DNA of 64,000 nucleotides. Source: Hormiphora californensis (Eukaryota > Animalia > Ctenophora). Numbering within the stretch: position 1 is the first letter of the stretch; each line of letters starts with the position of its first letter. Where the stretch lies: the NCBI GenBank assembly GCA_020137815.1, contig CM035356.1, forward strand, positions 6,510,001 to 6,574,000, written 5' to 3'. The notes beneath the pieces are model-generated. The model was not told the origin of the DNA, ran no database searches, and worked only from the letters and a program-made list of their open reading frames with translations. A program made the position numbers and the translations under genes. Shown here piece after piece: positions 16,243 through 51,500 of the stretch.

Positions 16243-18016
16243 ATGGACCACCCCCAATTATTGGGACCCATCCACCACCACCACATGGTGGAGCCCATAC
16301 CCTGGATGGAGCCCATAAAAAAGGAGGATAACCTGCCTGTGGTGGGGGGTCCCCCAGGGGCCCCAAATTACACTCCTACTGATTCGTGTAGTGTTGCAGC
16401 AGGGGATGTGGGGAGTCTGGAGGACTTTGAGGTGGAGAGGATTATAACGTGAGTTAGATTGTTATACTGATAACTGATAACCCCCACCCGTCGGTCCAAG
16501 GGTAGATCCTACAACTTTACTCAACCCCTTCCCCCTCTCACACCCAGATATAAGAAATCCATGGGTAGATCCTATTAACTCCTACCCCCTCCTAGATCTA
16601 AAAAGTCCAAGGGTAGATCATACTACTTGATACGCTGGAAGGGATACAACAGTGACGATGATACTTGGGAGCCGGAGGAGAACCTGGCAGGGTTTACCAT
16701 CCTTGATCAGTATAGACGGTTCCATCAGAAACGGAAAAGGTACTTACCATGCAACATATTATATGTATTATATGATCTCCTGGGACAAAGTTTCATTTTA
16801 CAGCGCAGTATTCTTTAGTTAGGTTTGAGTCCCCAAATTCCACTAATATTAATCTCTCCTACGCCCTGTTGCTTTCAGGTGTTCAAGTTCGGATAGCGAC
16901 CTTGGTGATGTGTCACAGAGTTCTTGCGCTCAAAAGGTGGGTTACATTGAGTCCTCAACTAATACAATCCATTACTAGCGTCTAACACCCCTGATACCGA
17001 GTTATTAACACCCTAACTAACACCCTAACTAACACCCTAACTAACACCTTAACTAACACCTTAACTAACACCTTAACTAACACCCTAACTAACACCCCTG
17101 ATACCGAGTTATTAACACCCTAACTAACACCCTAACTAACACCCTAACTAACACCCTAACTAACACCCCACCCCCCAGGTACCGGCTCACTCCCCCCTCT
17201 ACACACCAATAACATCAGGAGGTGCCCCCGTGCTACACCCCTCCGGAAACATCGTGCTAGTGCGACGAGGGAGATCCTCGGGGGTCCCAATAGTCCGTAA
17301 ACGCCGCTCCACCAAACCCAAAGACTACCATTGCACGGTGTGTGGCAAACAATACTCCACCAAATACACCCTCCAATCACACCTACTTAAAGGTGCACAA
17401 TCACAGCGAGTGCCTGATATGTGAGGACTGTGGGTATTTGGGGGATACCAAGGCTAAACTAGACCGGCACAAGGAGAGATATTGTAAGTGGGATGGTAAG
17501 GGTAGTACCTCCTCAACCCCTTCCTCCGCCCACCCCACCACCGATGAAATGTTCCATTGTAACAAGGAGGGGTGCTATGCGCTCTTTAAAACTGAACAAC
17601 AACTCTGGATGCACCAGTGTAAGGTGGTTAAACGGAACCGAACACGGCTAACAAGCGAGGAGGCTGAGCTAAAGAAGATTCACCCCTGTCATCTGTGTGA
17701 GAAGAGGTACGCCACAAAGTACACACTAAAGAGTCACATACGGAATGTTCACGATGGTATTGGAAACTACATGTGCACACAGTGCCCCTTTATAACAGAC
17801 AATAGGGTGTTATTCGATCAGCATATAGCAACTCATACCGGTGAGAAACGGTTCAAATGTATTCATTGCGATTACGGGACAATACAGAAGAACAACCTAC
17901 TGCAACATGTTTCCAAGTATCATAAGGATGGTAGTAGTGGTAGTGGTGGTGGGAATAATAATAACAATAGTCATGGTTCTGGTACTGATAACACTGCTAA
18001 TACTGCTGCTTCTTGA
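16243..18016 (+). CDS. Chromodomain + six C2H2/C2HC zinc-finger protein (one apparent +1 frameshift at ~17390)
   Basis: Exons 16243-16448, ~16596-16739, ~16879-16936, 17179-18016. Chromodomain [38 protein letters not shown]. Fingers CTVC..H..H, CEDC..H..C, CNKEGC..H.C, CHLC..H..H, CTQC..H..H-TGEKRF, CIHC..H..H. Confidence 0.85.
17005..17170 (+). repeat. Intronic 12-bp tandem repeat (caccctaactaa)
   Basis: Directly visible. Confidence 0.85.
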
Positions 18017-18659: not shown

Positions 18660-24284
<5,625 letters not shown>

Positions 24285-27300: not shown

Positions 27301-28600
27301 TGGGAGGTAGGTAAGCTAAGAGATGGAGTAAATGGGAGGTAGGGAAGCTGAGAGATGGAGTAAATGGGAGGTAGGGTAGCTGATAGATGGAGTGAATGGG
27401 AGGTTGGGTAGCTGAGAGATGGAGTAAATGGGAGGTAGGGAAGCTGAGAGATGGAGTAAATGGGAGGTAGGGAAGCTGAGAGATGGAGTAAATGGGAGGT
27501 AGGTAAGCTGAGAGATGGAGTAAATGGGAGGTAGGGTATCTGAAAGATGGAGTAAATGGCAGTTAGGGAAGCTGAGATATGGAGTAAATGGGAGGTAGGT
27601 AAGCTGAGAGATGGAGTAAATGGGAGGTAGGGAAGCTGAGAGATGGAGTAAATGGGAGGTAGGGTAGCTGAGAGATAGAGTAAATGGGAGGTAGGGTAGC
27701 TGAGAGATGGAGTAGATGAGGAGTAGGGTAGCGGAGAGATGGACTAGATTAGGGGTAGGGTAGCTGAAAGATGGAGTTAATGAGGGCTAGGGAAGCATAG
27801 AGATGGAAACGATTATGGATAGGGATTCCCTACCCCTAATCGTTTCCATCTCTATGCTTCCCTAATAGGGAAGCTGAGAGATGGAGTAGATAAGGAGTAG
27901 GGTAGCTGAGAGATGGACTAAATAAGGGGTAGGGTAGCTGAAAGATGGAGTAGATGAGGGGTAGGGTAGCTGAAAGATGGAGTAGATGAGGGGTAGGGTA
28001 GCTGAGAGATCGAGTTGATGAGGGGTAGGATAGCTGAGAGATGGAGTAGATCAAGATCAAGAAATATTTGATTCGGCACCGACCCTCTCTCTACTCCTCG
28101 ATGTTTCCCGCCATGTTCTGCAGCTGCTGTGTGAGAGTTGAACGCGAGCGCGTCAATAACATGACACGACATGCAACACGACATGCGAGATGCGAATTTC
28201 ATTATTTTGAAGTTTTGTGGGGTTGCGATTTTTGTTTTAGGTCGGAGAGTGAAACGGCCGGTACAGTGATAAACTAGATTAAAAACTGTACGCCTCATTA
28301 GACGGCGATTTTTCCTATCTTGTCTGGTTCCTGAGATATGGCCCCCTAAAGAGTTGGTGTCTCAAACTGCTGAATCGGGGTCACGCGAGGAAAATGGGCA
28401 TCAGTTTGCGTGTACTGCTCCGTTTTTCACGGGACTTGAACGAGGGTGACGGCAAGAGTCTCACCTATTACATGGTATCCTTACATTGTGTATTAAATCT
28501 AAAATGACTGAGCAGCATGCTTGTTAATGAACCTTGACGTGTTTACTTGTCTCGCAAGCGCGCTCGCGACTAGCAAACACGACATGCAGTTCACACCCTG
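24318..28600. mobile_element. 4.3-kb non-autonomous foldback element: long inverted arms with inner 32-bp tandem repeats, CAGGGTG termini, apparent 5-bp TSD ATTAT
   Basis: attat|cagggtgtgaactgcatg ... catgcagttcacaccctg|attat. Identical ORFs on opposite strands (24620..25000 and 27918..28298). Repeat ctacctcccatttactccatctctcagcttcc flips orientation at ~26060-26075. Confidence 0.93.
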
Positions 28601-28871: not shown

Positions 28872-29261
28872 AATAAGGAACCATAATAAAGTTCAAGAGC
28901 CTCCAAGAGCACCCAAGAGCGCACCCGATCGAAGAGAGACCACACCTGAGAGCGCACCACACCCAAAAGAGACCACATCCAAGAGCGCACCACCTCCAAA
29001 AGACACCACTTCAAGAGCGCACCACATCAAAGAGAGCTCCCCATCCAGAAGATACCACGCGCAGGGGACACCACGCGCAGAAGAGACCAGCGCGGCGTTG
29101 TATTTGCGCGTGCGGTCTCTTCTGCGCGTGGTGTCCCCTGCGCGCGGTATCTTCTGGATGGGGAGCTCTCTTTGATGTGGTGCGCTCTTGGAGTGGTGTC
29201 TTTTGGAGGTGGTACGCTCTTGGATGGGGTGCGCTCTTGAACTTTATTATGGTTCCTTATT
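28872..29261. mobile_element. Palindromic MITE with internal aagagcgcacc subrepeats
   Basis: aataaggaaccataataaagttcaagagc ... gctcttgaactttattatggttccttatt; inner arms also mirror each other. Confidence 0.85.
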
Positions 29262-29445: not shown

Positions 29446-32400
29446 ATGACAAAATTCACGAAACTTGGCAACACCAAACTTCAGATAAGCAAACTTGGCA
29501 TCGGTGGTGCTGCATTTAAAGACCATACAGACTCTAAACATGCAAAAGAAGTAGTTGAAACAGCTCTTAAAAATGGTAGGCTCATTTTCCTTTTACTCGA
29601 TAGACCAAAATTTCGGAAATCGGCCCTAAATAATTTTTTAAAAAAACTTCGTTCTCTGCAGGTATAAACTACATTGACACCTCGCCATGGTACAATAACA
29701 GCGAGCGCCTACTTGGAGAGGTTCTTAGTCATGTTAATCGGAACAAATATATCATCAGTAGCAAGTGTGGCCGGTTTTACAGTGACGACATTTTGGAATG
29801 GTAAGAGTAAGGGTATTTTATATTCAGATGAGAACTCATATCATAGCGCTGGCAAGCGCCCGGGGCCCAATCCTCCCTCCCCCAACCATCCTTCCCTAAA
29901 AATGTCCACTTTCCAAGCATTCTTGCTTCCAGTGAATGGAAAATCGAAATTGCGAAAAAAAAAATTTTTGAGTTTTTTGAAAATTTTTGAAAATTTTGAC
30001 AGCGCTACTACAGGGTGTCCCATATATTCTGTGGGTCGGTTGGCGAGCTGTCACGCAAAAACGGTGATAGTTGTGTGAAAACAAACTACGGGAGTGTGCT
30101 GGATTAATTCCTTCCTAACTGATGGCTTTGTTTTTAAATTAAATTTCAAAAGTTCATTTTTCATGAATGAACATTCCTGTCATTCATTCGTGAATTCTGA
30201 AATATTGTTTACCTTGAGTAAAAAACTTTTCTTTGGCTCGAAATTATCTTTCCAATGAGCACCATAAAAATCAAATTGAAGCACCGGATCGCATGGCAGG
30301 TGAGAAAATGCAAATGCATGATTTTGGCCATTCCTGCGACTTTCAATCAGCTGTATCACCGCTACTTTCAGTCCAATCCTTTTAAAAGTTTGGGTGAACA
30401 TTGGTGAAGATAAGATCTTTGCTCACAAGAAAAATCAAGGTCAAAACTCAAAGTTCATTTTTCATTTTTGGTAGTTCATTCCACTCATTCAGGAACAAAC
30501 ATCCCTAAAGTGACGAAAAGGTTTGGGTTTTGTTTGGCCCATGTCCTGAAACGACAGAGAGGTGTAAAAACGTGTTTCCGAGCTAGTTAGTGGGTGTCCA
30601 TGTGATCATTATGATATCTGACACCTTCGCTGAGCCATAATTAAGAGATTTTCTCAAATTCAAACATGGGATACGAGTATTCTGCGATTGGTATCGTGCA
30701 CCAATAACAAGAGATCCCATAGCACCTCAAAAATTATGATTAGCTAAATGAAATGAGTTGATTTACGATTGAAAAGATTAAAACCAATGTAAAGTCGGAC
30801 TAAACGAACATTTTCAAGCGTGAATCAACTCATTTCATTTAGCTAATCATAATTTTTGAGGTGCTATGGGATCTCTTGTTATTGGTGCATGATACCAATC
30901 GCAGAATACTCGTATCCCATGTTTGAATTTGAGAAAATCTCTTAATTATGGCTCAGCAAAGGTGTCAGATATCATAATGATCACATGGACACCCACTAAC
31001 TAGCCCGGAAACACGTTTTTACACCTCTCTGTCGTTTCAGGACATGGGCCAAACAAAACCCAAACCTTTTCGTCACTTTAGGGATGTTTGTTCCTGAATG
31101 AGTGGAATGAACTACCAAAAATGAAAAATGAACTTTGAGTTTTGACCTTGATTTTTCTTGTGAGCAAAGATCTTATCTTCACCTATGTTCACCCAAACTT
31201 TTAAAAGGATTGGACTGAAAGTAGCGGTGATACAGCTGATTGAAAGTCGCAGGAATGGCCAAAATCATGCATTTGCATTTTCTCACCTGCCATGCGATCC
31301 GGTGCTTCAATTTGATTTTTATGGTGCTCATTTGAAAGATAATTTCGAGCCAAAGAAAAGTTTTTTACTCAAGGTAAACAATATTTCAGAATTCACGAAT
31401 GAATGACAGGAATGTTCATTCATGAAAAATGAACTTTTGAAATTTAATTTAAAAACAAAGCCATCAGTTAGGAAGGAATTAATCCAGCACACTCCCGTAG
31501 TTTGTTTTCACACAACTATCACCGTTTTTGCGTGACAGCTCGCCAACCGACCCACAGAATATATGGGACACCCTTATACTTATTGTCTGAAATCGGCAAT
31601 TTCAACTTTGTTTTAGACAACCTTCCCGTTGTCCTACGAACTTGCCGCTTGGTAGTTCGTGTTGCCTTGACACCTAGAGCACACGTTCAAAATTTCATGC
31701 ATTACGAACCACCGTAAAATAACGACTTTTTTGCGTAGTTAATAGAGGCCAGAGTTTTAAAGCTATCACCATGAAACTTTGGGAGTCGGTAGGTCTAGTG
31801 GTGTACCTTGTATTAAAGCTTGGACAGAGAAAACGGACAGTCATAACAAAAGTTATGACTGTCTTAAGTTTTCTTTGGCGTCTAAGACAGCCTTCCGGTC
31901 GTTCTACGAATACGCCGCTTGGTACGTAATGTTGTCTCGACATCTTGAACACACGATCAAAATTTTAAGCAAATCCGAGTTACGGTTCTTCAGTTACGTG
32001 CATCTGACTGTATTAAGATTTAAGACGATTTTCAAAAAAACCTAGAAAAGAGCAAATTAAACTATAAATCATGATTTTATCACATATATTTTGCCAACGT
32101 AGGTCAACTGCTGTATTTTAAGATATAATTGGAAGTCATATCTAGATTTATGACTGTCTTAAATTTAAGACGATTTTAAAAACGCCTAGAAAGAAGCGTT
32201 TCAGAGTCTAAATTAACATTAAATCAGATTTATTTTATAAAATAAGGTTTACTGCCGCATTTTCAGTTATAATTGTTAGTCATATCTAGAGTTATGACTG
32301 TCTTAAATATAAGACGATTTAAAAAAAAAACGAGAAAAGAGAGAATTAGCATCTAGAACCTGATTGTATCAGATATATTTGATTATCAATGCTTATCCGT

Positions 32401-35400
32401 GATCGTTATCCGTAACTAATAATCAAAATCAGAGAACAATCGCGGATAACTAACCACGACAACTCATCACGCAAATGAGTAATATGATAGTTACCAATCG
32501 CGGATAGCTAATCGCAAATATAGCTAATCGCGATAGCTAATCGCGATAATTAATCGCGATAACTTATAACGGATTCGTGATCAGTTATCCGCGATTGGTT
32601 GTCCGCGATTACTATCATATTCGTTAATCGCAATTGATATCCGAGATTGGATATCTGCAATTGAAAAAGTCCGTGAATCCCCAATCCACGTTTATTAAAC
32701 TCAGCTAAGTAGTATAACAAAATGCCTGATACTAGATCCAAAAACCAAACAAGTTTGGTGGATAGCCGGGGCCGCAGAAATTTAAAAACGTGCGAAAGTT
32801 TTGATACATGAACTTTCGGGGCCTGGGGTGCTGTTAAATTCGCGTTTCCATGATAGTCAGCCGTTCTTTCAAAACACACTATTATTCTGTAAAACAGATT
32901 CTGAAACGACCCACTGTGTGCAGTATATTATAATACGTGATATGTGCAGCTGCAGTGGAGCTGTATGTATGATAATGTGGAATCAAAAATAATGATAACT
33001 ATTGCAATCATTGCGATAGTTTTCCTGGAGTATAGTTTGAAAATGTTGCTGGTTATAATCATGGAAACGCGAATTTAACAGCACCCCAGGCCCCGAAAGT
33101 TCATGTATCAAAACTTTCGCACGTTTTTAAATTTCTGCGGCCCCGGCTATCCACCAAACTTGTTTGGTTTTTGGATCTAGTTTTACTGAATATTGATTAA
33201 TTTTGTGATCTGATGTAATTTAGTTCTCAGTATACTTCCTCACAACAAAATTTTCTTAGGTTTGACTTCAGTTACGATAAAATAACAGAAAGTATTGATA
33301 ACTCAATAAAACTGCTGCACTGCAAATATTTAGATATCTGTTTTTGTCATGACATTGAATTTGCTCCCACCGTCGAAGTTGTCACGAGTGAGGCTCTGCC
33401 GGCTATGCAGAAAGCAAGGGAGAAAGGAAAAATAAAATACATAGGAATTTCAGGTTGGTAAATAATAATTGTATCCTGCTGTCTATTAATTGCCTCTCTC
33501 TTCCTCACTCAGTTATATATCTCTTTCTTCCTCTCTCAGTTATCGAGTTTGTAGCTACATGTTGTTAAAGTGTAACCGCCTCTTGTGCCTGCAGTTACAT
33601 TAGTCTTGTATAATACTGCAGTTCAACACTTCATTGCTCAATTGATCGGTCTTGTTCAAGGGAGATGGGATTTAACGAGCTAAATAGTCTACTCTAACTA
33701 CTTTTATTGCTGCATTGAACAAAGCCCAGCTTTTAAACCCCCAGACCACGTACATATTATCATTAGTGCATGACCACCACTCCCCTACTATTATATTATA
33801 GGGTACTCAGTACTCACTGAACCATATATCTGGTTATATACACGTGGAATCCGCCCTTAGTCAGTAAGTCAATATCTGGTTATAACCCCATACTACGTAC
33901 TACCTCAGGGTACCCTCTGGAGAAACTAAAATCTGTTGTGGAGCTCTCCACAGTGAAGATAGACGTGGTTTTAACGTATTGCAAACACACACTAAACGAT
34001 ACAGAGCTGCTGAGTTACCTCCCGTGGTTTGCCGAACAGGGTATTGCCGTTATTAACGCCAGTCCTTTTGCAATGGGACTACTGACAGATGCAGGTATAT
34101 ACAGTTGGTTATGTTCTAACCCTCCTTAACATTTGTTTGGGGTGCGGGAAACAGGGTCGAGCATTGAGCAAGGTACAATATAAATTATAAGTGGGCTCTC
34201 TTGCACCTTGTGTGTGTGTCTGTGCAATACTCTGCTCTGTGCAGACAATGTGTAAGGTGTAAAGGACCGGGTAACGGTGAGATTACAAGTCCCGGATTCG
34301 CTATAAAACTATCGTGCATTCATTAGTATAGGTATTTAACAGGTGGGCTGCTGGTGGTTATTGGTGGTTGTTAGTAGTAGGGAGTTGTGTCCTATTCATC
34401 AGAACAGTTTGGATTGTATTTAATATATCTGTACCTATTATAAAGCAGTACAGTGCATTTCCTAGTTTCCAATATATATAACTTAATCGAATGTCCACCT
34501 GTCACACATGTTGTGTACTGTATGCCGTTAGAACTTTATATGAGCACTGTAAAATTGTCTGTATGTGTATTTGTACTATTTGAAGTTCAGTAACAATAGA
34601 AGGGTACAACCATATCACACATACCTACCGTTATTAGAACTATATATGATAGAACTGTGAGATTGTCTGTGTGTGTGTGTGACATGCCTCATACTGTATG
34701 TGACCTGACAGCTTTCTATTCATCACACTATGTACCATCAGGTCTAGTGTTCAGCTTGTAATTGAATCATAGCTCTGATCATTCATCGTTGCTAGACAGA
34801 CCACTATGACTATACCAGTCACCAGTCGCCCCCACATCAGGAACCGACTGAATCATGAAATACTGGTCCCTGATTGGCTCCCCCCACCATTCTTAGATGT
34901 ACCAGTAGCACCTCCCGCCCCCTAGAGAACGCCGAACGCCTTCCTCTTCAGTGACTTTGTTAATATTACACCCTCCCCTCTTCACTGAATAACATGATCT
35001 AATACACCGCTAATTATCCCGAAAACATAATATATGTAATATAACAAGTGTCAGGAGGGAGGGGGGGGGGTGCCAGGTGTGAGGTGGGCTAATGATAGTG
35101 GTAGAGAAGTACCCTCTTAGTAACGTTACAACGTTAAGGCCAGAGGGGGGGTCCGGGGGTATAAAAAGTCACTTTCACAATCTGGTCCGGCTCTTCGAGC
35201 CTCTGGCCTTAACAGCTGTCAATATAATAATATTATGAGAGGATGTTTAGGGGTGGGGGGACACGTAACATTTTGTAACATAAATTTTTTGCAAGTTACA
35301 TAACGGGTGACAACTAAAAATCTGGACAATTTTCTGTGAGCTCTAGCGCCGGCCCCGCTTGAGATACAGCTTCAGGCCAGTGATAGAACGATTTTTCAGA

Positions 35401-38400
35401 CAATTCTGAATCAGAATAACACAACAGGAAAAACTAAAAAGTTCATTTTCATTGCGATATCGCATCATTTCCTCTTGACCCACCAAAGCATGTGTACGGA
35501 GATTTGAGATTACTGTGTGATCAGAAACGACCTTCCCGATGAGATAAAATTCTCAAATTTGAAATATTGGTTGTTCATGCTATAACCAACATAACTGCCA
35601 AGTTTCAACATTTTAGCTTATCAGGAAGTTGGTTTTCCACGTCATAAATGTTTCGAGAGATCGTCAAAATGGCGATTTCTCAAATTACCTGTAAACTACG
35701 CTTTGAAGGGTTTGTTACAGATGATTCTGTGATTAGAATTGAGATTATCGGAGTGTGAAACAAAGTTAATGTTGTTCAAAATCGTCTGAAAAATCATTCT
35801 ATCGCTGCCCCGATGCTTTATCTCAAAAAGAACAGGCGCTAGAGGTGCTAGAAAAGTGTGTAAATTTCAAGTATTACATGCTTTGGTGGGTCAAGAGGAA
35901 ATGATGCGATATCGCAATGAAAATGAACTTTTTAGTTTTTCCCGTTGTGTTATTCAGATTCAAAATTGTCTGAAAAATCGTTCTATCACTGGCCTGAAGC
36001 TGTATCTCAAACGGGGCCGGCGCTAGAGCTCACAGAAAACTGTCCAGATTTTTAGTTGTCACCCGTTAGTACAAAACGTCACGTACCACCCATCCCCCCG
36101 GTCCCCTGTATAACGTTCAATATTCTAATATCCATATTCCAGGTCCTCCAAAATGGCATTCAGCCAGCGAAGTAACCAGGAAGGCAGCCAGAGATGCAGC
36201 AGAATTTGCACGTTCTGAGGTAATTATTGTCAGAGCATTGGGAGCTGACATATATGCTAATTCAGAGAGTTTTGCTCGAAATCCAGTACTTTTTGTCATT
36301 TTGGATGTATATTTAGAGCCTGCTCGATTTATTAAATTGTTCATTCATCCTCTCAGGCCACCCTCCTAAAGAAAGCTAGAGATAGAGAGGGGCATGCCAC
36401 CTGGTTTTGTGCTCCCATCTCCTTATCTCTATCTCTTCCTAACTGCATCCATACATGTCACCAGCATGCTCTAAATTTTCTCAACTCTATCTTCCCAACT
36501 CTATCTGGCAGGTGAGTAGAACTTCGCTCCTAATAAAAGGCTGCAATAAAAGGCTGCAATAAAAGGCTGCAGAAAAAGGCTGCAATAAAAGGCTGCAATA
36601 AAAGGCTGCAATAAAAGGCTGCAAGGGATCACGTATCTAACCAGACTAAAGCGGGGGATAGACCGAATCGTCCTCCCCTAATAGTGTTTCGTATCACGTA
36701 TCGACTGTAGAGAGACCGAATCACGCTCCCCTAATTATAGTGATTCGTGTCACGTATCCAACTAGACCATAGGCGATAGAGAGACGGTATGGTATCACGG
36801 TATGGTATCACGTACCATGGTATCCTCTAATGAAAAGTGGTTACCAATTGACAATGAGACCTCATCGGTCCTGATACGTGATTCTCTACCGCTATGTATT
36901 CTCTATTAGTCTTTCCGTATCGATCCACGATTCAGTAGAGGTAGTCAGTAACTACTGAGAGTCTTGGTCTAATGAGGTAGGGTAGATTTATTGATTGAGC
37001 GTGTAGCACAATGACAGGTGAACCACCCAACCACTCGGTTCACCTATCATAGTATTATGTGTGATTCCGCTCTACTGAATTGTGTACATAAAGACTATTG
37101 GCGAATAACGGTAAAAAAAATCAGTAATCACGTATTGGCACCGATTAGGTCAAATTATAGGTAACCGCCTTTCATTTAATTAATTAGAGGATATCATGAA
37201 ACGTGATATAATACTTGATTAGTCGTCCATGATTCGCATCTCTCACTCTCACCTCTCTAACTCTCTATCTCCGTCTATCTACCACCTATGGTTTAGTTGG
37301 ATACATGGCACGAATCACTATAATTAGGGGCGGGTGATTCGGTCTCTCTACTGCTTATGGTAGAGACCGATACGTGAAACGAAACACTATTAGGGGAGGA
37401 CGATTCGGTCTATCTCCTGCTTTAGTCCAGTTGGATACGTGATCCATTGCAGCCTTTTATTGCAGCCTTTTAATGCAGCCTTTTAATGCAGCCTTTTATT
37501 GCAGCCTTTTAATGCAGCCTTTTATTGCAGCCTTTTATTAGGAGCGAAGTTCTACTCACCTGCCCTCTATCTATATCTCATCCAACAATCTTCTCTTATT
37601 GTCATTCAGCTACAATTATATCAGTCCTTCTAGATTCTCTAAGATTCTCTATCAGTTCCATTTTCTATCCGATTCCGGCCCTCAGCCCGGCCCAGGTGGC
37701 AACTTAATCTACCTTTGGGGGTCGGCCGTGGTGCATAGTATGATCTGTCATATGGTAGAAAATACTACCCCTCACCCTTTCCTTAACCCTGCTGAGTATA
37801 GACATGACAGCTTCAGGATGAGAGAAGGGCAGCTAATTTAAGTTTACCAATGCCAGAGCATGCAAAATCTGAAAGGGTACAACCCTTTTTAAATCCCAAA
37901 TATGTTTCAGGGTAGTTCCATAACTCGGCTGGCGCTCCAATTCAGCACATCAGAACCTCGTGTACCTTGTACGCTAGTAGGATGTGAGACTAAGGAGCAG
38001 CTCTTGGAAAACATAAAGGGTAGGGACATAAATTATCCTAAAACTTCCTCTCTCTCTCCTCTTTTCCGGTAACTCAATCTCCCCCGACCCCCTAACTTAT
38101 TGGTATTCATTTCTATAATATTAGTCATTGAACCCTTTTCAGTGATCAACGAGGGCCTAACACAGGAAGAGACCATTCTTATCAGCACTGTCAGGGAAAA
38201 GTATTTCGCTGATTCACACCACTCCTGGGAAGGTATTTAAAGAAAATTATCTGGATACTCCTTGTTGTTATGTTCTAACAGGGGCGCGTGAAACATAGTC
38301 TAGCTAGGCAAACTCCTTGAACTCCTGGGAAGGTAGTTAAAGAAAATTATCTGGATACTAAAACTTAAAATATTGAAAACTCAGATGTATTTTAAAGAAA

Positions 38401-39035: not shown

Positions 39036-39536
39036 ATGGCATCTGAAAATGCCCAATTCCGTATACAGGTAGTGTTGTGAGTATAACACTATCGCTTGTA
39101 GTGGAGAAACGGTAACGCATTACCGTAATGAGACGCACGGGTAATAAACACAGTCATGTTCAGCCTGATCTAGCTGAAAAAGTGTGCTTTATAACCCGCA
39201 CGCTACGTAAAGTGTGCGTCTCATTACGGTAATGCGTTACCGCTTCTCCACTACAAGCGATAGTGTTATAGCCACTTAAGTAAATCACTAGCTATAATAG
39301 ATTCTTTACAGATTGCTGAAATAGAAACTGAACTGGAAGTTATGGATGAAGAACTGATGAAGTTTGATAGAGAGTCCCAATCGTCCAGGCGTATCGCACC
39401 ACATCCCCAAGATTTCGCGTTAGCGAAGCAACTTTCCGGTTCCGGTGCCTCTACAGCTGCTGCAAAGCTCCGAGAGAGACGAATTGCTAAAGCCAAAAAG
39501 TTGCAAGAACTTAGGAAGAGATTGGAAGAGCTTTAA
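39036..39536 (+). CDS. Small (~86 aa) coiled-coil protein of unknown function, two exons
   Basis: 39036-39068 MASENAQFRIQ|gt ... ag|39312-39536 IAEIETELEVMDEELMKF...KKLQELRKRLEEL*; phase 0 join. Confidence 0.6.
39082..39270. mobile_element. Palindromic MITE in the intron of the small gene
   Basis: tataacactatcgcttgtagtggagaa...ttctccactacaagcgatagtgttata. Confidence 0.85.
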
Positions 39537-39789: not shown

Positions 39790-40980
39790 CCCCCTCCTAT
39801 ATCCACTATATCAACATTCAGAATGATGCTACATACTTCCCACCCCACCCTCCCTCTATTTTATCTTCTATACCAACATCAGAATGATGCTACATACTTC
39901 CCACCCCACCCTCCCTCTATTTTATCTTCTATACCAACATCAGAATGGTGCTACATGGGGGGGTTCCAACCTATTTGTTGTATGTTTGTACGGAAAAAAA
40001 CAAGCTTTTCCTCAAACAAAAAAATACAAAAAAGTACAAAAAAATACAAAAAAATACAAAAAAATAAAACGGGTTATAAATTATTAAACAAAGCTTTTCT
40101 GATCGTTGAAACTTTAGTTTATGATCATAATTGTGTCATAAATTCCTATTAAACTGTGGTTTCATACAAAATTAGCAACTTTTTCTTATAATTGGAAGAT
40201 AAAAACATCTTTTAATCATGTTTTAATTGTTCTTTATCAAAACACAAGGAAATATTCTATTCAAAATTTTCGAAATCTGTATCAATGATGTTTACTTTTT
40301 CGAATTTCGAATGAAAGATAATAAATACACGACAAACGTTCATAGGTGGTACATTAGCACAAAAGGAACCCGTCCATGAACTACGCACCCACCTCCATAA
40401 TTTGTTGTACTTTTTTTTGTACTGTTTGTACGAAAAATCGGAATTTCTAAAGGTCCCCCCAAACTACTATGTCCCTTGCTGTGCGCGACCGGATTTTAGA
40501 CGGCCATAGCTCCACCCCCTGATAAGATAGAGACTTGAAATTTGTTTTGTAGGGAGATCATATCGAGTTCTTTGTACAAAACAAATTTCAAGTCTCTATC
40601 TCATCAGGGAGTGGAGTTATGACCGTGGGAATTTTACAAACCCGAGTGAGGGACATAGTAGTTGGGGTGTTAGAGTTTGAACACACTCCCCCCCCTCTCC
40701 TATACTCCATACCAACATTCAGAATGTGCTACATACTTCCCAATCCCACCCACTCCTCATTTTTACTCCTTACTCAACCAATTCAATGTGCTACATACTT
40801 CCCACCCCACCCTCCCTCTATTTTATCTCCTATACCAACATTCAGAATGGTGCTACATACTTCCCACCCCACCCTCCCTCTATTTTATCTCCTATACCAA
40901 CATTCAGAATGGTGCTACATACTTCCCACCCCACCCTCCCTCTATTTTATCTTCTATACCAACATTCAGAATGGTGCTAA
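39790..40980 (+). repeat. 62-bp tandem repeat containing acceptor + start (ccaacattcag|aatggtgcta), interrupted by insertions
   Basis: Copies at ~39790-39955 and ~40690-40980; the last copy provides the NDUFAF1 ATG. Confidence 0.85.
40447..40647. mobile_element. Short hairpin-containing dispersed repeat; inverted second copy at 46680-46882
   Basis: catagctccaccccctgataagatagagacttgaaatttgttttgta...tacaaaacaaatttcaagtctctatctcatcagggagtggagttatg. Confidence 0.8.
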
Positions 40981-42575: not shown

Positions 42576-45500
42576 ATATCTCTCTATCTTTCTGCTCTTT
42601 TGCAATTACAAATCCCACATGTTCCACAACTTCACACCACTACCCACGTTTCAATTCATTAAATCTGCCACCACACAGGGACGGATTGACGGGACGGCAT
42701 CGTATTTTAATACCGAGGCCCGGCCTTGGGATGGAGTGGGATACGCAGGAATCAGATCTTACCCCTTCTCAGTAAGTGTAACACAACAGACAGAATACAC
42801 CATTAATATTGATCCTAACCCTCACAGAGCGTGGTGTGAGTGAGGTGTGAGCCACACTTAACATTAATACAGGCCCGGGTGTTTGAGTTGTGCAGCAAGA
42901 CTTATCTCTTTCTGCACAACTCAACGATCTCGTTTCACACGAGCGATCTTGGGATTTCCCAGCGAACATGGTATATCCAGCGACTAAACCGAAACGAATC
43001 ATAATATGTAACCATAGTTCACATTTAATCTCTATTATTTAATCTCTATTCCCGACTACAATTCCTTCTCCCTCTCTCTCTCCCGCAAAGAGAGAAACTG
43101 TTTTCCAGTTTAACGCTCTCTCTCTCTCTCCAATCTCCCTTTTTTACGGCAGAAATACACTCTCCCCCTCAGTTTAACGCTCTCTCTTCTTTTTTTACAG
43201 AAGAAACGATATCTCTATATACAGCAGTATTTAAACGGGAAGGCCAAATTTAATTTATGTCCAAAGTATGATGTATGCACTTCTGACACGTCCAGCTCTA
43301 GATATTTCGGTCAATCTATTCGGTTTATCAAACTTGTTCAACTAAAACAATGAGTTCACGACTAGCGATGGTTGATGTCCTGGAATAACTTCCTCCATCT
43401 TGTCCATGTCCACTCGCAGATACTCCGGTATATGGTGCTGTAGAAGATGGGGTTTAGAAGGCTGTTGCTAGGCAGCACCGCTAAACTAAACACCTCGTAT
43501 ACAATACCCGGTGCGGCTGCGGGGTTAAACCAGCTGTAGTAGAGAACGGTTATGATGTAGGACAACCAAGCTACCGCCTGACTTCCTATTAGTAGAACCA
43601 GCTTCAGGGCGAGTTTACTGACATGATCGCTGTTATCTAACCCACTTCTGGATGCAGAATTGAAGCTAGCTACCAGGATGGAAATATAGGAGATAAGGAG
43701 GATGGAAAGGAGCACACCAACAACCACACAGTATCCTATCTTGTAGTAGACGTAGCTGGACTGGTTTTTGAAGATGTTAGCAACACAAAGAGGGCTGTTT
43801 CCATAGTAACCAATGCTTAGGTAGTCAAAGATGGAGGGCTTCGATGTGATATTCCGAAGGTCCGCTAGAACGGTATCTATCCCAAGCAAACCCTCACCAG
43901 TTTCAGCTAAAAAGTGGCTGGTATTCTCTGTGACTGTGTTATTATAAGCAAGAGAGTGCATAAACCTCAAATGCTCCTCATCATACCTAAAACAAGATTT
44001 TATGAGATTTGATCAGGAGTAAATAGGGAAGAAACTACTCACACAAAGGAAAAACTACCGTATACTGCTATACTAAACGGTAGTTTTCCTTTGTGTAACT
44101 AGCTCTCCGACGCCTTTTGCGATCGAACACTCTTCCGCCGTAACGGAATTCTACGAAGAAACTACTTACCTAGTAAGGAATGGATTCTCCTGTCCAGAAA
44201 GAAAAACGATGTCCGTCCGAAATACTTCCTGGATCATGACCAAGGGTAGCACTGGGAGGAGGGCATGGGCAAGGTTTAGAACTCCGATCCCCACTGATGT
44301 GACCCAAATGGACCTAATGGAGATGTCCTTTACCAAATCCAAACAGGTCAAGCACCGGATCAAGCTCATCGTGGTAATGAGGAGGAAGGATCCGTGAGAG
44401 GAGAAGGTGAAGAGGCAACCAAGAGTTGAACAGCTGATGCTAGATCTCCAATTTTCATCCTGCTGACAATACTCGCCGATTAAGCGGAGACCTGTAGCAA
44501 CAAGCATCAAAATGACAAGATACAGGCCCATCAGGAAGTCGTAGAATGCCACCTGTATCCTTAGAATTCTGTCAATTTTTCCAGGTTTATTATCCGGTCT
44601 CGTTTTGAATGTTTGGTGTCCTATTTTGATATTTAGGGCGACGATAGCCAACCCTCCTACTAGGCCAAGGACACCTAAAACTTTGGATCGAATGAGGAAC
44701 TTATTGGAACTCAGTTTACCAGTTGGACACCCAGCGCACTCATCCAAGCCATTTGCACAGTCCCTTGCACCGTCACAGACCCTAGCCTCGTCAACCCACG
44801 TCACCAGAGTATCCTCGGGATCGCTGCAATAAAATCTATCGGGGCAGAATAATTCGTCGTGTCCATTTGGACAGTCAATAATGCCATCGCAAACCTTGCC
44901 CATGTCCCACAGAACAGAATACACGTACCTGAAACTCTCAGTACCGAGAAAGCAGGAAAATGATAGCTGCATTGCGAGACCTCCAACGCTTATCTTAACT
45001 CTTTGGCATAATTCTGTAAGCCAAGCTTTGGTTGCGTTGTCACCTATTGACTGGAAAATGTTTGAGCGTAGCACCTGCTCACAAGCTTGCGCCTCTCGGT
45101 GATCCCTCGAACCAGATACCTGCATGTTATTGTACACCCGGATAATGTTCTGTTGCTGCTGGGCCAAAGATTTCTTGAGAGTCTGTGACATTGTGTTGAG
45201 TTCCTTGCAATGGACATCAGAGTAACCCTCACAAGAGAGAAGGGAGACGGTTCTTTGCAGGCCCGCAGAACATATATCTGATTTGGAAATGCATGCTGTG
45301 TAAGACTTATCGGGAAGACACCGAACTGTCACGGCCCCGCTACACATACACTCGTCTGTGCCTCCCTCACAGTTGGCTATACCGTCACACACTTGATAAA
45401 ACGGTATACAACCGCCCAATTTTCCTGGACAGTAAAACACTTCTTCGTCACACTTGCATTCATCAGTAAGGCAGGCACTCACTCCGCTACATTTCACCAT

Positions 45501-48358
45501 CGCTTCGTCACGGGTTATGCCACCAATCACACAGGAGATATCTATGGGAGACTGGAGGAAATGGTAGAGTTTCTGCAGCATGTCGTCAGTGGGGTCTGGA
45601 AACTCGGGTGAAAACTTTCTCCCCGCGAAGTGTATCAGATCAAACACCCCTCGACATTCCAAGGAGTTTCCTGCGAATGGTGTGGCTGCAGTAAAATTGG
45701 AAAACTTCCAACTAGTGTTGCCTTGTCCAGAGCTGATGTAGTTAAGCTGGATAACGATGCCCTCCAGACAGACAACTCTCTCGAAGTCTACGTTATTTCC
45801 ACCAATAGGAGAGTTTAGTGCTCTGATCTGGTACATGGAGCTGGGTGATGCTCCTCCTCCCAGGCAGGCCAGTACTAGAAGAATGGGAGACATTCTGGAG
45901 CTGGTTGAGGCTGGTCACGTAAAACTTGTTATGTTCTAACTCTCCTTTACAGGCAACGTAAAACTAGAAATATGCTTTTAATGTTTTTAGGGTTTTTATA
46001 TCACAATAGTTCTTGTGTTCATTGGACGGGTTGGACTCGCTGGATGTTGTTGGATGAGGCCAGATGTTTCGGTGTTTGACACCATCGTCGGTGGTGGCTG
46101 GGAATAGAGCATATTGGGAATAGGAATCGGAATCGAGATTCATGTCGGAACAATCACGTACTCTCTATCTCGTACTCTCTATCTCGTATGTGATTGTTTT
46201 GATATGAATTTCGATTTTGGTTCCTATTCCTAAATGTGTTCTATTTTTGGCTACTACTGATGATGGTGTTGAACGCCGAGGTATCTGGTTGCATCCAGTG
46301 ATGTCCAGCGAGTCTAACTTGTCCAATGAACACAAGAACTATTATCAATCATGAGACTCAAGAATAGTCAAGCGATACATTATTTGTTTTTATATCACGT
46401 TTACGTATTATAATTGTTATTATACCATACCAGGAGCATGATCACATGTTATGATCACATGATATCACATAACAATACAGTATGAAGTATGAACCCCGAT
46501 AGCTGATTTATCAGTCGTTTGAACATTTAACGTGCACATGATAACTGCGAGCTGGGGGACGTACGAGATAGAGAGTACGAGATAGAGAGTACAATGAACA
46601 CCCTGCTCGCTATTTATTATATGTAGTACAGTCGGACCCCGATTTAGGGGCCCCCGATTTAGTGGCACCCCGATTTAACACTCGGGTTTTGTGAAATTTC
46701 CCACGGTCATAATTCCACTCCCTGATGGGATGGAGACTTGGGATTTGTTTTGTAGGGAGAACTCGACATGGTCTCCTCACAAAACAGATTTCGAGTCTCT
46801 ATCTCATCAGGGGGTGGAGCTATGTCTGTCTAAAATCCGGTCGCGCGCAGCAAGGGACATAATAGTTTGAGAGGACCTTTAGGGACAGGATTTTTTCCCC
46901 CGATATAGGAAGTTAACCTTATTTGACCCCGATTTAGTGGACACCCCGATTTAGTGGACAAGAGCCTTTCCCCCGAGGGTGTCCCTAAATCGGGGTCCGA
47001 CTGTAGAAGCGATAACTACACTCGCCTCCTTTGATTTCTGTAGGGCTTTTCCCGTGCTGAAGGGTGGAAATGAAGGTTCAAATACCGCTGAGTTAAATTA
47101 AATCGCTAATTGAAAAACGCCAAAATGGCCTGAATCGACCTGGGTTCGGATGATAGGTTTTGGAGTTGTGGCTCCGGACTTCGTGGGGATGTCCGCTGGG
47201 ATGGCAATGTGCGCCGGAATTGGATGGAGGCCTAAATTGATTCGTCCGAATTCGGTACGAAAAGCCAGGAAAACTGAATTGTGTTCAGTTCGCCCTTGTG
47301 CATTGTAGAGAGGTTGCTCGTCTGATCGTTCCCTTATCTTTGTAATCGTATACCCTCCCTAAACCATCCCTCGCACCCTACCTCCCTTGTCTTTGTATCT
47401 GAACCACCCAACCATCGACAAATCTACACATTTGAACAGGATAAGAACTCTATGTTTATTGTTTAACTATAATCAATGCAACTGATAAACGCACTACAAA
47501 TGACTCATAATGAATTTACAGTTTTTACATAATGTTTAAAATTCAAAGCTTTGGTTGATTAAGAGATTGCGGGAGAGTAGAACTGAGTAGTACACTATAG
47601 TGTTCCGGCCATAATTATATGGTTTTGTGTCGCTGACTTAGCACGTTTATCGCATGTTACTGTTGGTGAGCAGCCCCCGGCCACCTTCATTTCTCAGCCA
47701 CCTTCACATCCACAGTGAAGTCACTAGATAGGCCCCATGGAACTGTCATTAAGCGGATAGTGTCATGGGGCCTATAATTCAGCCTCACGTCCACTCACTA
47801 GCTCACCGAGGCATTGCTCAGCATATCATACCACGCTCAGATCACGTTCTATGTCTGATCAATTGATGTGAATTGTATATGTTGGGTTGGGCAAATTTGG
47901 AGAAAATCACAAATTCATCACTCAACTGTTCCAGATCATCTTCATGTTCCAGCAAGAATTTCTATTCAGCCACACCTTTCTTTTCAGCTACTTCTCCTTT
48001 TCTGCTATTTTTCATCTCATTCCCCCGCCCTTTCTTCTTTTCTCACTCGTTCCTGCATGCACTCGTTCCTGCATGCACCTCCCCCTTCTTTCTGTTTTAA
48101 TCTTCCCGTCGAGATCTGCAGCAGTTTTGCAGCTGACTCTCCTCCCCGGCTCCCTCCTTAACCTAATTATTTTCAGGACAGTGGCACGATACCATCTTAT
48201 CTCAGTTCTCAAGGTCTCTCCCTAGTAATCCCCTAGTCTGTCCATTCCAGCATTGAACCCTTTTCTCAACTAATTTACCCATTGTCTCAGATTTATTGGT
48301 TCAACCAATTTGAGCCTAGAGGACTGTTTTCGTTTTCCCCCTTCCTTACCTCTGCGGC

Positions 48359-48389
<31 letters not shown>

Positions 48390-48498
48390 CCTCTCCCTCC
48401 CTTATCTCTCGCTCTGTCCTCCTCTCTTTTTCTCCTTCCAGACCTTCTTCTCTCAGCACTATCTCTCTCTCCCTCGCTCTCTCTCCCTCGCTCTCTCT

Positions 48499-48566
<68 letters not shown>

Positions 48567-51500
48567 CTCTCGCTGTTGTCATGGTAATATTATAATAATA
48601 ATATTATTAATATGTCAATGGGAGCCAGCCAGGATCGGATCTTGTCATTATACATTGTGTATAATATTGATTTTATCCTTTTCTTTCCATCTTTCTCTTC
48701 TACCCTCTCTCTTTCTCTCTCTCCCTTACTTCTATCGTTTTACAACACCTGCTAGGGTGCAGTCCCGACCCACATTACCGTACGTAGCTCGTAAAATTTA
48801 GGCTCTTTCTGAAAAAAGAGAGTGGTCGGGACGGCCCTGGCAGGTTCACCCCGCGCTGGCCAAGCGCTGTATAAGGTTGTGCCGTCGGAACTAATGCTAT
48901 CCCAAACTATGTTGTCTAGCTGTACAACCACGCTGCTCTCTCGTGCGACTCTTGATTGAAGAGCAACCATCAATGTTGATATTCAATTAGCAGTCTATAC
49001 TCATGTGACGGAGAGAGCAGGGCTGTGCAGCGTTCGTGTCGAGAAGACAGAGGGCAAGATGGGGCGCGGTGAATTCATGTTTTGTAAGGCAGCCCTTGAG
49101 ATACAGAAACAGAGGTTAACTCCTTGCAAAACTATGGATGCGGAGAAGATACGAAAAAAAAAAAAAAAAAAAACGATATCTCTCTCTCCCCTCAAACTAC
49201 GCGATATGTCACGCACTGTGCTAATTAAAAAAATCCATCTTCACTTCCTAACTCAGTTGTGCAGCAAGACTTATCTCTTTCTGCACAACTCAACGATCTC
49301 GTTTCACACGAGCGATCTTGGGATTTCCCAGCGAACATGGTATATCCAGCGACTAAACCGAAACGAATCATAATATGTAACCATAGTTCACATTTAATCT
49401 CTATTATTTGCCTCCACCCACCCCTCCGCCCACCCCACCCCTCCTCCCCACCCACCTCCCCCGCCTCACCCGTCCCAAAGTAGAGGACTTTCTGAAACAG
49501 GTTACTATAGAGACAATCCTTGTGTTCTAATTCGCTAAGTCGCTTATCGCGTGTAAGTGTGTAACAACTCACAAATATAGTAGCAAAACTACTCCCCCGA
49601 TACTGCTTTGCAGGTACGCTGCCCCTGCAGGCATACATATACTAATTTTTGAGTAAATACTATCTGGTTGAATAACAATTTCAAGATCTAGATCTAAAAT
49701 AAACCTCCGATATTTTTTAATCCCTACTACCCTCCACCCGCCCCGAACCGCCCACCACCAATATATTCATACTAAACAAAACTGTGGACTGAGAACAAAT
49801 CCTTGCTAGTTCAGCCTTCTAACCTAATCGGACTTAATTAGTCCTAATCAGACAGATAGGTCTCACATTACACATATAATACGTACAATACCCGTCCTGC
49901 CACTTATAATGTAAACCTACCATATGCCAGACCAATTCAAGATACTATAATACTATAATAATGAAACCCCAAACACCTAATATGTGGGTGACCTAAAATC
50001 CTAAAAACGGAGGCAAAACCTCGTACAATAACCTATGTAAAACGATAATAAACCACACCGCAGTAGCTATCAGGCTAATCGAGACTAAAGAATAGAAAGC
50101 GACATCCCCTCTTGTCGCAGGGGGATAGAGCCACGGAGCCAAGAATCACAGAAAGAAGAATCAAGATTCTGCGACTCTCGAAGGAGTTTAGTCTCCCGAA
50201 CCCGAAGCCACCTATAATGCGAACCTGTCCTGTGGTCAGTTCCTGATGGTGGGGGAGGGGAGGGGGGCTATTCTCCTAGTGCCGGCGATATCGCTTTGCG
50301 ATAGTCCCCTGTGGGCTTGCCGTTGGCAAGCCCAGGCACTCCGTAGATAGATAGATAGATAGGCCCGGGTGTTTTATCCTCGAACACCAGCACTCTTTTT
50401 CACTGAGTTAAATGAGGAATGTGAACTTGGAAAGTTGCCATCACTGGATATATATTAATCCTAAATATCTCAGGTCATGTTTAACGCACAGACAAATTTA
50501 TACTGGCGACATGATAAATTACACACATTCCTTTGTGTAGCTCACACCGTGTTTAATTTCTGTGAGGATTTCGGTTTAGATCAAACATTTCTCTCTGATC
50601 TTTTTTCTTTCTTTTATTTAAATATTTTTCTGATCTTTTTCTCTCTCTTCAGAAAACGTGGGGTGATCACCAGTTGTATGAATACGCAGTGGATCTACAT
50701 CGCCACCAGCAGTTTGAGTTTCGTGTGAGGGGCGATGGTCGACCATATCGAGTCCAGGTGAGAGTTGTTGATGACATTTCAAAGTTGGCACTCCCAAACT
50801 CACAGTGGTCATCCGACATTATAATTGCCATATCTCGACGTGAACTTCGACGTGGAATTCGACGAGGAATAGCAGGCGTGCCTGCTGTGCGCGGCACATT
50901 GGCACGTGCGGCATGGGCAGCAGGCGTTCATAACTACAAACGCCTGCTATTCCTCGTCGAATTCCACGTCGAAGTTCACGTCGAGATATGGCAATTATGT
51001 CGGATGACCACTGTCATGTGCATGTGATATTTATCGATTTTTACGCACACCACATGTAAACATGTGATAGGCGCATAAAAAACGAGCACACGTACGATAA
51101 GGGGGGGGGGGGTAACAACTTCAAAAAACTTCGATATACACGGTAAACCACTTCAATATTGGGGACAAATTTTCCAGAATGATATATCCTTATTAGGTTT
51201 GATTTAGCATCATTTCCCAATTCCCATGCTAATACAGTATAATATTCATATTGATATGGAGTGATACTCATCATAAAGATAGTATATTGGAGGCATTAAG
51301 ATCTGTGAACTGAGTGAGAAATAGAGAGCAAAATGTGAGAAACAGAGAGAATCGGTAATATATATTTCGTGTATGTCAGCTAATTTCACTAATAAGAGAA
51401 CTATAATACCATGTATACTTGAGTAAGGGAGCGGTACTATACACAGTTTTACATATTTACAAGTATCTTCATTAGTAAGATTATTATATGGGTCCTCCTC

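What the first reader, a model, noticed from the sequence alone, without database searches (positions are those of the whole stretch)
42871..50374. A whole intron-containing GPCR gene apparently moved by retro-transduction of an antisense RNA
Seen: an exact 14-bp direct repeat (AGGCCCGGGTGTTT, 42871 and 50361) brackets 7476 bp inside NDUFAF1 intron 3. The right end is a GC stem-loop followed by a (TAGA)n tail abutting the repeat. Removing the insert leaves an ordinary ~390-bp intron. The insert holds an intact two-exon LDLa-GPCR on the opposite strand with its upstream region, and its hairpins carry + strand A>G footprints (next two findings). Known: variable-length TSD, a short-repeat tail and a 3' stem-loop typify target-primed reverse transcription by non-LTR elements. 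An intron lying antisense in the RNA template is not spliced out. Inference: a + strand read-through or intronic RNA ending in a LINE/SINE 3' end was reverse transcribed (about 6 kb of 5' transduction), copying a complete gene with intron and promoter. This would be an RNA-mediated route to intron-retaining duplicates, and could help explain nested antisense genes and GPCR expansion in this lineage.
Basis: partly seen in the sequence, partly recalled or inferred. Interest (0 to 1): 0.92.

Follow-up and report, generated by a model that had tools for sequence, protein, structure and literature searches.

The report
Edited antisense RNA moved whole gene
In what is likely a comb-jelly genome, an intact intron-containing receptor gene lies backwards inside another gene's intron, bracketed by an exact 14-base repeat and by two copies of a repeat family, and its upstream hairpins carry dozens of one-strand changes, so it was likely copied there through an edited antisense RNA by a retrotransposon.

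Summary
An exact 14-bp repeat (42871, 50361) brackets 7,476 bp of a CIA30/NDUFAF1-like gene's third intron; removing it leaves 391 bp. Inside is an intact 782-aa two-exon LDLa-GPCR of a ctenophore family, on the minus strand. An upstream hairpin has 35 of 36 mismatches of the plus-strand G·T type, with ADAR-like neighbours. That edited arm is present in DNA contigs of three samples.

It starts at the left target-site copy, recurs at 49255 ahead of the ~950-bp tailed end, and appears multi-copy in two species. So this is not a plain 5' transduction: the gene is framed by element ends, as in Penelope-mediated capture of an intron-containing gene in bdelloid rotifers. The left junction also matches the last six bases of the ctenophore spliced leader.

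RNA passage of the plus strand is well supported; one-step target-primed insertion is likely but unproven. The empty site, donor locus, partner element and expression were not shown, and contig depths give no sign of a near-identical donor. Verdict: new variant of a known kind, interest 0.66.

The parts
42679..42771 (+). Host gene (CIA30/NDUFAF1-like) exon 3
   Evidence: AG/GT boundaries and open chain with exons 1, 2, 4
42871..42884 (+). Left copy of 14-bp target-site duplication (inferred TSD)
   Evidence: exact, maximal, two copies only
42882..42887 (+). TTTGAG: matches last 6 nt of the published ctenophore spliced leader; 3 nt overlap the TSD; also completes the hairpin arm
   Evidence: sequence; leader end AATTTGAG in PMC8527503 section 37
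42886..43040 (+). Repeat R, left copy (155 bp), opening with a ~40-bp palindrome; apparently multi-copy
   Evidence: 100% identical to 49255-49409; fold z=-5.44, 0 of 200 shuffles; bin depth 33-133x single-copy level in 4 of 4 runs laid
43023..43050 (+). Tandem 14-bp duplication at the junction of R with the captured segment (slippage scar, inferred)
43362..43986 (-). GPCR exon 2 (TM5-TM7, stop)
   Evidence: 7tm_1 E=6e-8; 53-74% identity to 8 of 9 hits
43987..44169 (-). GPCR intron, 183 nt, GT-AG, holds a short hairpin and a piece 90% like 21483-21540
44170..45893 (-). GPCR exon 1 (hydrophobic N-terminus, LDLa repeats, TM1-4)
46005..46343 (+). 157-bp-stem hairpin with 35 plus-strand G·T mismatches (ADAR footprint, inferred)
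   Evidence: 35 of 36 mismatches, 0 of mirror type, p=6e-11; 5' G in 1 of 35 changed vs 20 of 71 unchanged A, p=0.0015; left arm in DNA contigs of X2, X3, X5 with 0 other letters
46627..47005 (.). High-copy MITE-like element with 29-bp terminal inverted repeats, holding an inner hairpin element (46679-46882) with 6 private A>G changes
   Evidence: loose ends at both termini in 4 of 4 runs; private changes A>G 6, C>T 2, T>C 1
49235..49256 (+). Pyrimidine tract plus CAG just ahead of the right copy of R (candidate splice acceptor; also reads as an initiator-like TCAGTT, recalled motif)
   Evidence: 16 of 20 pyrimidines; window's own acceptors 12-18; chance 4% window-wide, 13% locally
49255..49409 (+). 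Repeat R, right copy
49410..50343 (+). Non-coding body U of the tailed element, ending in a three-way stem-loop (50277-50340)
   Evidence: fold; no RT or other family above cut-off in the ORFs tested; no tRNA; no Rfam ribozyme
50344..50360 (+). (TAGA)4-T tail
50361..50374 (+). Right copy of the 14-bp duplication
50653..50757 (+). Host gene exon 4
   Evidence: CIA30 E=0.079

Best explanation
The 7.5-kb insert is likely one retrotransposition product: a plus-strand RNA that would begin at repeat R, run antisense through the whole GPCR gene, and end in a second R, a non-coding body, a stem-loop and a (TAGA)n tail, likely reverse-transcribed from that tail by a LINE-type enzyme into the host intron. 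SHOWN: the 14-bp duplication, the R-X-R-U-tail order, the intact antisense gene with its intron, and strand-specific G·T changes in two hairpins that are heritable DNA. INFERRED: (1) the changes are ADAR edits made on the RNA and fixed by reverse transcriptase; (2) the intron survived because it lay antisense; (3) the tail primed TPRT and the 14-mer is a target duplication; (4) R came to flank the gene through a tandem duplication at the donor or a template jump, leaving the 14-bp slippage scar; (5) least certain, about 40%: the RNA's 5' end was a spliced leader joined at the acceptor ahead of R, of which GAG (plus TTT microhomology) remains.
For: TSD exact, chance about 1.5e-5, one copy abutting the tail and the other abutting the start of R. 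35 of 36 hairpin mismatches are plus-strand G·T. None of 14 inverted-repeat rows outside the insert and outside the 24.9-28.1 kb satellite comes close; the most skewed are 11:3 and 11:4. 5' G depletion p=0.0015. Direction is A>G: other contigs read A at 4 of the 10 right-arm G sites, and none of the 25 right-arm T sites appears as T>C, among the 40 of 353 rows shown. A second hairpin 350 bp away has 6 private A>G against 1 T>C and 2 C>T. A 327-nt X2 contig joins the GPCR start codon to the edited arm (record 6). Edit strand and tail strand agree. A-to-I editing of repeats is reported in the ctenophore M. leidyi (PMC9989829, passages).
Against: No empty site, donor or autonomous partner was seen. 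Copy number of U and the tail is untested. No listed contig bridges the left junction. Coding-region contigs are not clearly deeper than the edited hairpin or host exon (X3 7.4-10.3 vs 11.6; X2 342-391 vs 213-229 and 298; X5 550-1421 vs 567 and 617), so no near-identical donor is evident, though the tool warns that depth is no copy number. Those contigs differ from the window by up to 10 of 388 letters; at 1-2% divergence perfect identity over 169 bp has probability 0.03-0.18. The GPCR-intron hairpin, the R palindrome and the 3' stem-loop show no edit bias. Edits could date from an earlier RNA passage.
Confidence: 0.5

Rival explanations
1. Same plus-strand RNA passage, but by Penelope-like (PLE) machinery: R is a pseudo-LTR with a 5' palindrome, and the gene between two direct pLTRs was mobilised in trans.
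For: PMC3846280 section 9: intron-retaining NRPS gene between two direct pLTRs, 8-bp TSD, empty allele found, pLTR with a 38-bp 5' palindrome. R opens with a ~40-bp palindrome. Naiad PLEs occur in ctenophores, favour microsatellites and lack canonical hammerheads (PMC8557442, passages).
Against: The right R is followed by about 950 bp, a stem-loop and a microsatellite tail, not a 30-40-bp extension. No inverted pLTR copy. No hammerhead among 16 Rfam rows, none at gathering score. No RT or GIY-YIG remnant in the 17 non-host ORFs scanned or the 2.
Confidence: 0.2
2. Two steps: a 1.1-kb R-U-tail element first inserted here with the 14-bp TSD; later a break inside it was repaired from another copy, or a DNA circle recombined into R, bringing in that copy's 6.2-kb upstream flank at the DNA level. 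The edits came with the donor.
For: It reproduces the order TSD-R-X-R-U-tail-TSD exactly, with the slippage scar at the non-homologous end, and explains 100% R identity as a younger event. Gap-filling capture into resident elements is documented in animals for DNA transposons (PMC8277862, passages).
Against: It needs a separate earlier RNA passage of the same segment on the same strand to explain 35:0 and 6:1 edits in two different hairpin families.
Confidence: 0.18
3. The GPCR is an old nested gene (or an assembly mis-join); repeats piled up around it, and the G·T pairs reflect selection on a plus-strand hairpin RNA or deamination.
For: Nested genes are common in ctenophores: 2,357 in H. californensis, 1,109 with a TE on at least one side (PMC8527503). 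No donor surplus in depth and about 1-2.6% variation in the coding region. No contig seen across the left junction.
Against: It leaves the exact 14-mer at both element termini to chance (1.5e-5). The edited arm is in DNA of three samples. A>G direction and 5' G depletion fit ADAR; the CpG reading is not enriched (15 of 35 vs 13 of 49, p=0.16) and would hit both strands.
Confidence: 0.07

Closest known systems
[quoted passage not shown]
   Same: Whole host gene with introns between two direct element repeats that start with a palindrome; TSD; antisense template proposed; gene-family expansion argued.
   Different: Here the right repeat continues into about 950 bp, a stem-loop and a (TAGA)n tail; there is no inverted pLTR; the cargo carries A>G footprints that give the RNA strand directly; the empty site is not yet shown here.
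L1/SVA transduction, including the SVA-mediated AMAC gene family (mentioned in PMC8277862 discussion; details of 5' transduction recalled)
   Same: TSD, tail, flanking host sequence copied with the element, whole gene moved.
   Different: Cargo lies 5' of the tailed element, is antisense and keeps its intron; a second element start caps the left end.
Spliced-leader relicts marking dinoflagellate retrogenes (PMC5585692; abstract only)
   Same: A partial leader end at the 5' junction of a retro-copy.
   Different: Only 6 matching bases here, 3 shared with the TSD; the RNA would be an element/antisense transcript, not the gene's mRNA.
Gap-filling capture in Pack-TIRs (PMC8277862; passages)
   Same: Cargo inside a split element with a repair scar.
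   Different: The element here is tailed and TSD-flanked like a retroelement, and the cargo is edited.
Ctenophore LDLa-7TM receptor family (Pleurobrachia bachei EukProt P001024, P004885 and unnamed ENA proteins)
   Same: 58-69% identity; same LDLa plus 7TM layout; P001024 looks like two fused neighbouring copies.
   Different: No near-identical protein was found (best 63% over 774 aa).

Membership tests
Non-LTR (LINE-mobilised) 5' transduction | Variable-length TSD around element plus cargo | tested here: met
   14-bp exact repeat; empty site not seen
Non-LTR (LINE-mobilised) 5' transduction | Simple-repeat or poly(A) tail at the 3' TSD | tested here: met
   (TAGA)4-T abuts the right copy
Non-LTR (LINE-mobilised) 5' transduction | 3' stem-loop ahead of the tail | tested here: inconclusive
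   z=-2.69 on 96 nt, z=-0.88 on 141 nt
Non-LTR (LINE-mobilised) 5' transduction | Left end is plain donor flank | tested here: not met
   left end is a second copy of the element's first 155 bp
Non-LTR (LINE-mobilised) 5' transduction | Autonomous LINE sharing the 3' end; donor locus | not testable with these tools
   no genome held; metagenome scans empty
Penelope-like element capture | Direct repeats (pLTRs) framing the cargo, with 5' palindrome | tested here: met
Penelope-like element capture | 30-40-bp tail beyond the pLTR | tested here: not met
   about 950 bp plus microsatellite follow the right R
Penelope-like element capture | Hammerhead ribozyme in the pLTR (absent in Naiads) | tested here: not met
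Penelope-like element capture | R shared with an RT plus GIY-YIG element | not testable with these tools
   no genome held
tRNA-derived SINE | tRNA-like head with A and B boxes | tested here: not met
   0 tRNA genes; no plus-strand A or B box in 48700-50365, recalled patterns
Helitron | Hairpin then CTRR end, no TSD (recalled) | tested here: not met
   hairpin is followed by GTAG and a 14-bp duplication is present
LTR/TRIM element | Terminal TG...CA repeats, 4-6-bp TSD (recalled) | tested here: not met
   R lacks these ends, the right copy is internal, the duplication is 14 bp
Spliced-leader-relict retrocopy | Leader 3' end at the 5' junction, acceptor at the same point in the genomic copy | tested here: inconclusive
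   6-nt match, 5 of them also explained by the palindrome; acceptor-like context has 4-13% chance
ADAR-hyperedited RNA fixed in DNA | One-strand A>G clustered in dsRNA stems, 5' G avoided | tested here: met
   DNA contigs
Rhodopsin-like GPCR with LDLa ectodomain | 7tm_1 domain | tested here: met
   E=6e-8, above cut-off
Rhodopsin-like GPCR with LDLa ectodomain | LDLa repeats | tested here: inconclusive
   E=3e-4, 21.3 vs 24.1 bits; PF00057 on 4 of 7 homologues

The most novel reading that the evidence does not exclude
A ctenophore retroelement family has no promoter of its own. It rides on host read-through transcription, uses spliced-leader trans-splicing at an acceptor in front of R to cut out its 5' end (the leader's last five bases extend R's opening hairpin), and when two acceptor-R copies flank a stretch it carries whole antisense genes with their introns into other genes' introns. 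ADAR edits then record the RNA strand in DNA, giving a genome-wide test for the origin of ctenophores' thousands of nested genes and their GPCR expansion.
Probability: 0.2. Interest if true: 0.87.

Novelty: new variant of a known kind. Interest (0 to 1): 0.66.

Why it matters
Intron-containing paralogues are normally read as DNA-level duplicates. Here a built-in record (strand-specific A>G in hairpins) says an intron-containing gene passed through an antisense RNA, which is direct sequence support for the antisense-template idea that PMC3846280 could only propose. The same footprint, with R and the tail, can be counted genome-wide, so the origin of ctenophore nested intronic genes (2,357 in H. 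californensis, PMC8527503) becomes testable. A leader-defined element end would be a new way for a retroelement to make its 5' end.

Tried and rejected
No whole genome was available. An exact 28-nt scan for the 3' end in JGI metagenomes gave 0 hits; a scan for GPCR relatives gave 52 pattern hits and 0 confirmed. No RNA holder was listed among 14 runs, so expression is open. Organism B (run X7) has no cover over 5 of 30 bins, all within the GPCR or its 3' flank, at 85% likeness; a hole proves nothing. The joint 45951 to 46626 in X2 and X5 could be a version lacking the edited hairpin, but its short side is 21 letters and 45925-45951 recurs at 8973 and 34108, so I did not use it. Rfam gave 16 rows, 15 miRNA-type hairpins and one sRNA, all below gathering score. 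Pfam on 19 short ORFs gave one sub-threshold hit; ORFs under 35 aa and several of the 58 listed were not scanned. The right R has no TSD of its own (longest shared word 4 nt). Helitron, LTR/TRIM and tRNA-SINE readings fail their tests. CpG decay was rejected. A cap-derived G at 42885 was considered (recalled hallmark) and cannot be told from the leader or hairpin readings. The tomato SUN/Rider duplication is a recalled precedent; I saw it only as a reference-list entry and in search listings. No family tree was obtained. Earlier-finding look-ups returned nothing. Literature searches listed no paper whose title or abstract start describes this family or ADAR footprints in a transduced gene; only listings were seen for most, subscription papers are missing, and no supplements were read (the repeat annotation of PMC8527503 and file S1 of PMC8557442 may bear on the family's identity).
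Full report
Observation. The 14-mer occurs at 42871 and 50361 only and is maximal; a given such word is expected about 1.5e-5 times per 10 kb. Exact repeats of 14 or more bases are common in this repeat-rich window (1,725 pairs, 41 of them starting beyond 28 kb), so the weight comes from position: one copy abuts the only (TAGA)n run in the window and the other abuts the start of a repeat family. The host intron is 7,881 nt and would be 391 nt without the insert. The host label CIA30/NDUFAF1 rests on a sub-threshold Pfam hit and recalled motifs. The GPCR is intact, 782 aa, with a 183-nt GT-AG intron. Its closest named relatives are Pleurobrachia bachei proteins at 58-69%, so the window is likely from a ctenophore; no call names the species.

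42886-43040 is 100% identical to 49255-49409. The insert therefore reads TSD, G, R, X (6.2 kb with the antisense GPCR), R, U (about 950 bp, non-coding), stem-loop, tail, TSD. The depth bin holding the left R is 133, 58, 37 and about 33 times the single-copy level in runs X2, X5, X7 and X3, X7 being a second organism; depth is not a copy number, but R appears to be a shared repeat family. R opens with a palindrome and folds far better than shuffles (z=-5.44). The R-X junction carries a tandem 14-bp duplication, which I read as a polymerase slippage scar; it does not tell RNA from DNA synthesis.

RNA passage. In the hairpin 46005-46343, 35 of 36 mismatches are plus-strand G·T (25 left arm, 10 right arm) and none is of the mirror type (p=6e-11). 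Fourteen inverted-repeat rows outside the insert show nothing like it (most skewed 11:3 and 11:4); I set aside the many overlapping rows of the 24.9-28.1 kb satellite, which are roughly balanced. Changed adenosines avoid a 5' G (1 of 35 vs 20 of 71, p=0.0015), the ADAR preference as I recall it. Other contigs read A at 4 of the 10 right-arm G sites; only 40 of 353 rows were shown. For the 25 left-arm sites the direction is inferred, not shown. A second, unrelated hairpin has 6 private A>G against 2 C>T and 1 T>C, and many contigs read A at 46741 and 46787. The edited left arm lies in DNA contigs of three samples with no other letters, and one X2 contig links it to the GPCR start codon, so it is heritable DNA. 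Against: the intron hairpin, the R palindrome and the 3' stem-loop show no bias. Editing of repeats is reported in M. leidyi (PMC9989829, passages).

The 5' end. The left junction reads TTTGAG then TTGTG; the published leader ends AATTTGAG in H. californensis and mostly so in M. leidyi (PMC8527503 section 37). The right R is preceded by 16 of 20 pyrimidines and CAG, like the window's own acceptors (12-18 of 20), and the duplication starts exactly at that AG. This is what a leader-spliced RNA would leave. But five of the six bases also complete R's palindrome, three lie in the TSD, and the acceptor-like context has a 4% (window) to 13% (local) chance. I put the leader reading at about 40%; a family 5' end set by the hairpin and a cap-derived G are the alternatives.

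What is not shown. The empty site was not tested, and no listed contig bridges the left junction. Coding contigs are not clearly deeper than the edited hairpin or host exon and differ from the window by up to 10 of 388 letters. That fits one diploid locus with ordinary variation better than insert plus near-identical donor, and sits uneasily with 169 bp of perfect repeats (probability 0.03-0.18 at 1-2%). So 'moved' is safer than 'duplicated'. Copy number of U and the tail, the partner enzyme, a promoter and expression are all open.

Mechanism. The simplest single account is TPRT from the tail of one plus-strand RNA spanning R-X-R-U-tail (0.5): edit strand, tail strand and intron retention agree. 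The same passage by Penelope-like machinery is next (0.2), since the direct repeats with a palindrome match the bdelloid case, but the long tailed right end does not. DNA-level capture into a resident 1.1-kb insertion reproduces the layout too (0.18) but needs a separate earlier RNA passage. An old nested gene or mis-join is unlikely (0.07).

Comparison and novelty. [quoted passage not shown] What is added here is an ADAR record of the template strand, a hybrid layout and a possible leader relict, in a lineage with 2,357 nested genes of which 1,109 have a flanking TE (PMC8527503). Papers seen: PMC8527503 (passages, section 37), PMC8557442 (passages), PMC3846280 (passages, section 9), PMC8277862 (passages), PMC9989829 (passages), PMC5585692 (abstract and outline); no supplements. 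Verdict: new variant of a known kind, interest 0.66; 0.87 if the leader-dependent family proves real (probability 0.2).

Noticed in passing
window 24867-28056: A 3.2-kb satellite of ~32-bp units arranged as two inverted halves around 26064-26077, with a sharp GC-skew flip.
   Followed up: no
window 30012-31574, 28972-29230, 35301-36068, 39077-39275, 50802-51014: Several near-perfect long inverted repeats (MITE or foldback-like) without strand-biased mismatches; used only as controls.
   Followed up: partly
window 43987-44169 and 21483-21540: The GPCR's only intron holds a hairpin and a piece 90% like another site; relative P0014, seen on a 437-kb contig, aligns in one piece across this position, so the intron may be a repeat-derived gain.
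   Followed up: partly
P0008 (P. bachei EukProt P001024): The 1,163-aa model matches the window GPCR twice (residues 2-645 and 647-1161), suggesting tandem copies fused in one model or haplotype duplication.
   Followed up: partly
window 49154-49174: An A-rich run of about 20 nt 80 bp upstream of the right R, ending a 137-codon stop-free frame with no Pfam match; possibly an older retro-insertion.
   Followed up: partly
window 39800-40975: 62-bp tandem repeats end in an acceptor-like CAG directly before the host gene's ATG (40971), 1.4 kb after the previous gene's stop; looks like a trans-splice acceptor.
   Followed up: no
window 46158-46191 and 46559-46592: The loop of the edited hairpin has an inverted 34-bp copy 370 bp downstream, and 46324/46592 share a 10-bp direct repeat, suggesting a foldback origin of the hairpin.
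   Followed up: no
window 11815-15018, 17294-18016, 23625-24284: A 1,067-codon low-complexity frame with VNSPSVP repeats, a C2H2 zinc-finger-like frame and an ankyrin-like frame, by eye only.
   Followed up: no
window 43928: A 12-bp in-frame insertion allele or paralogue of GPCR exon 2 in run X5.
   Followed up: no
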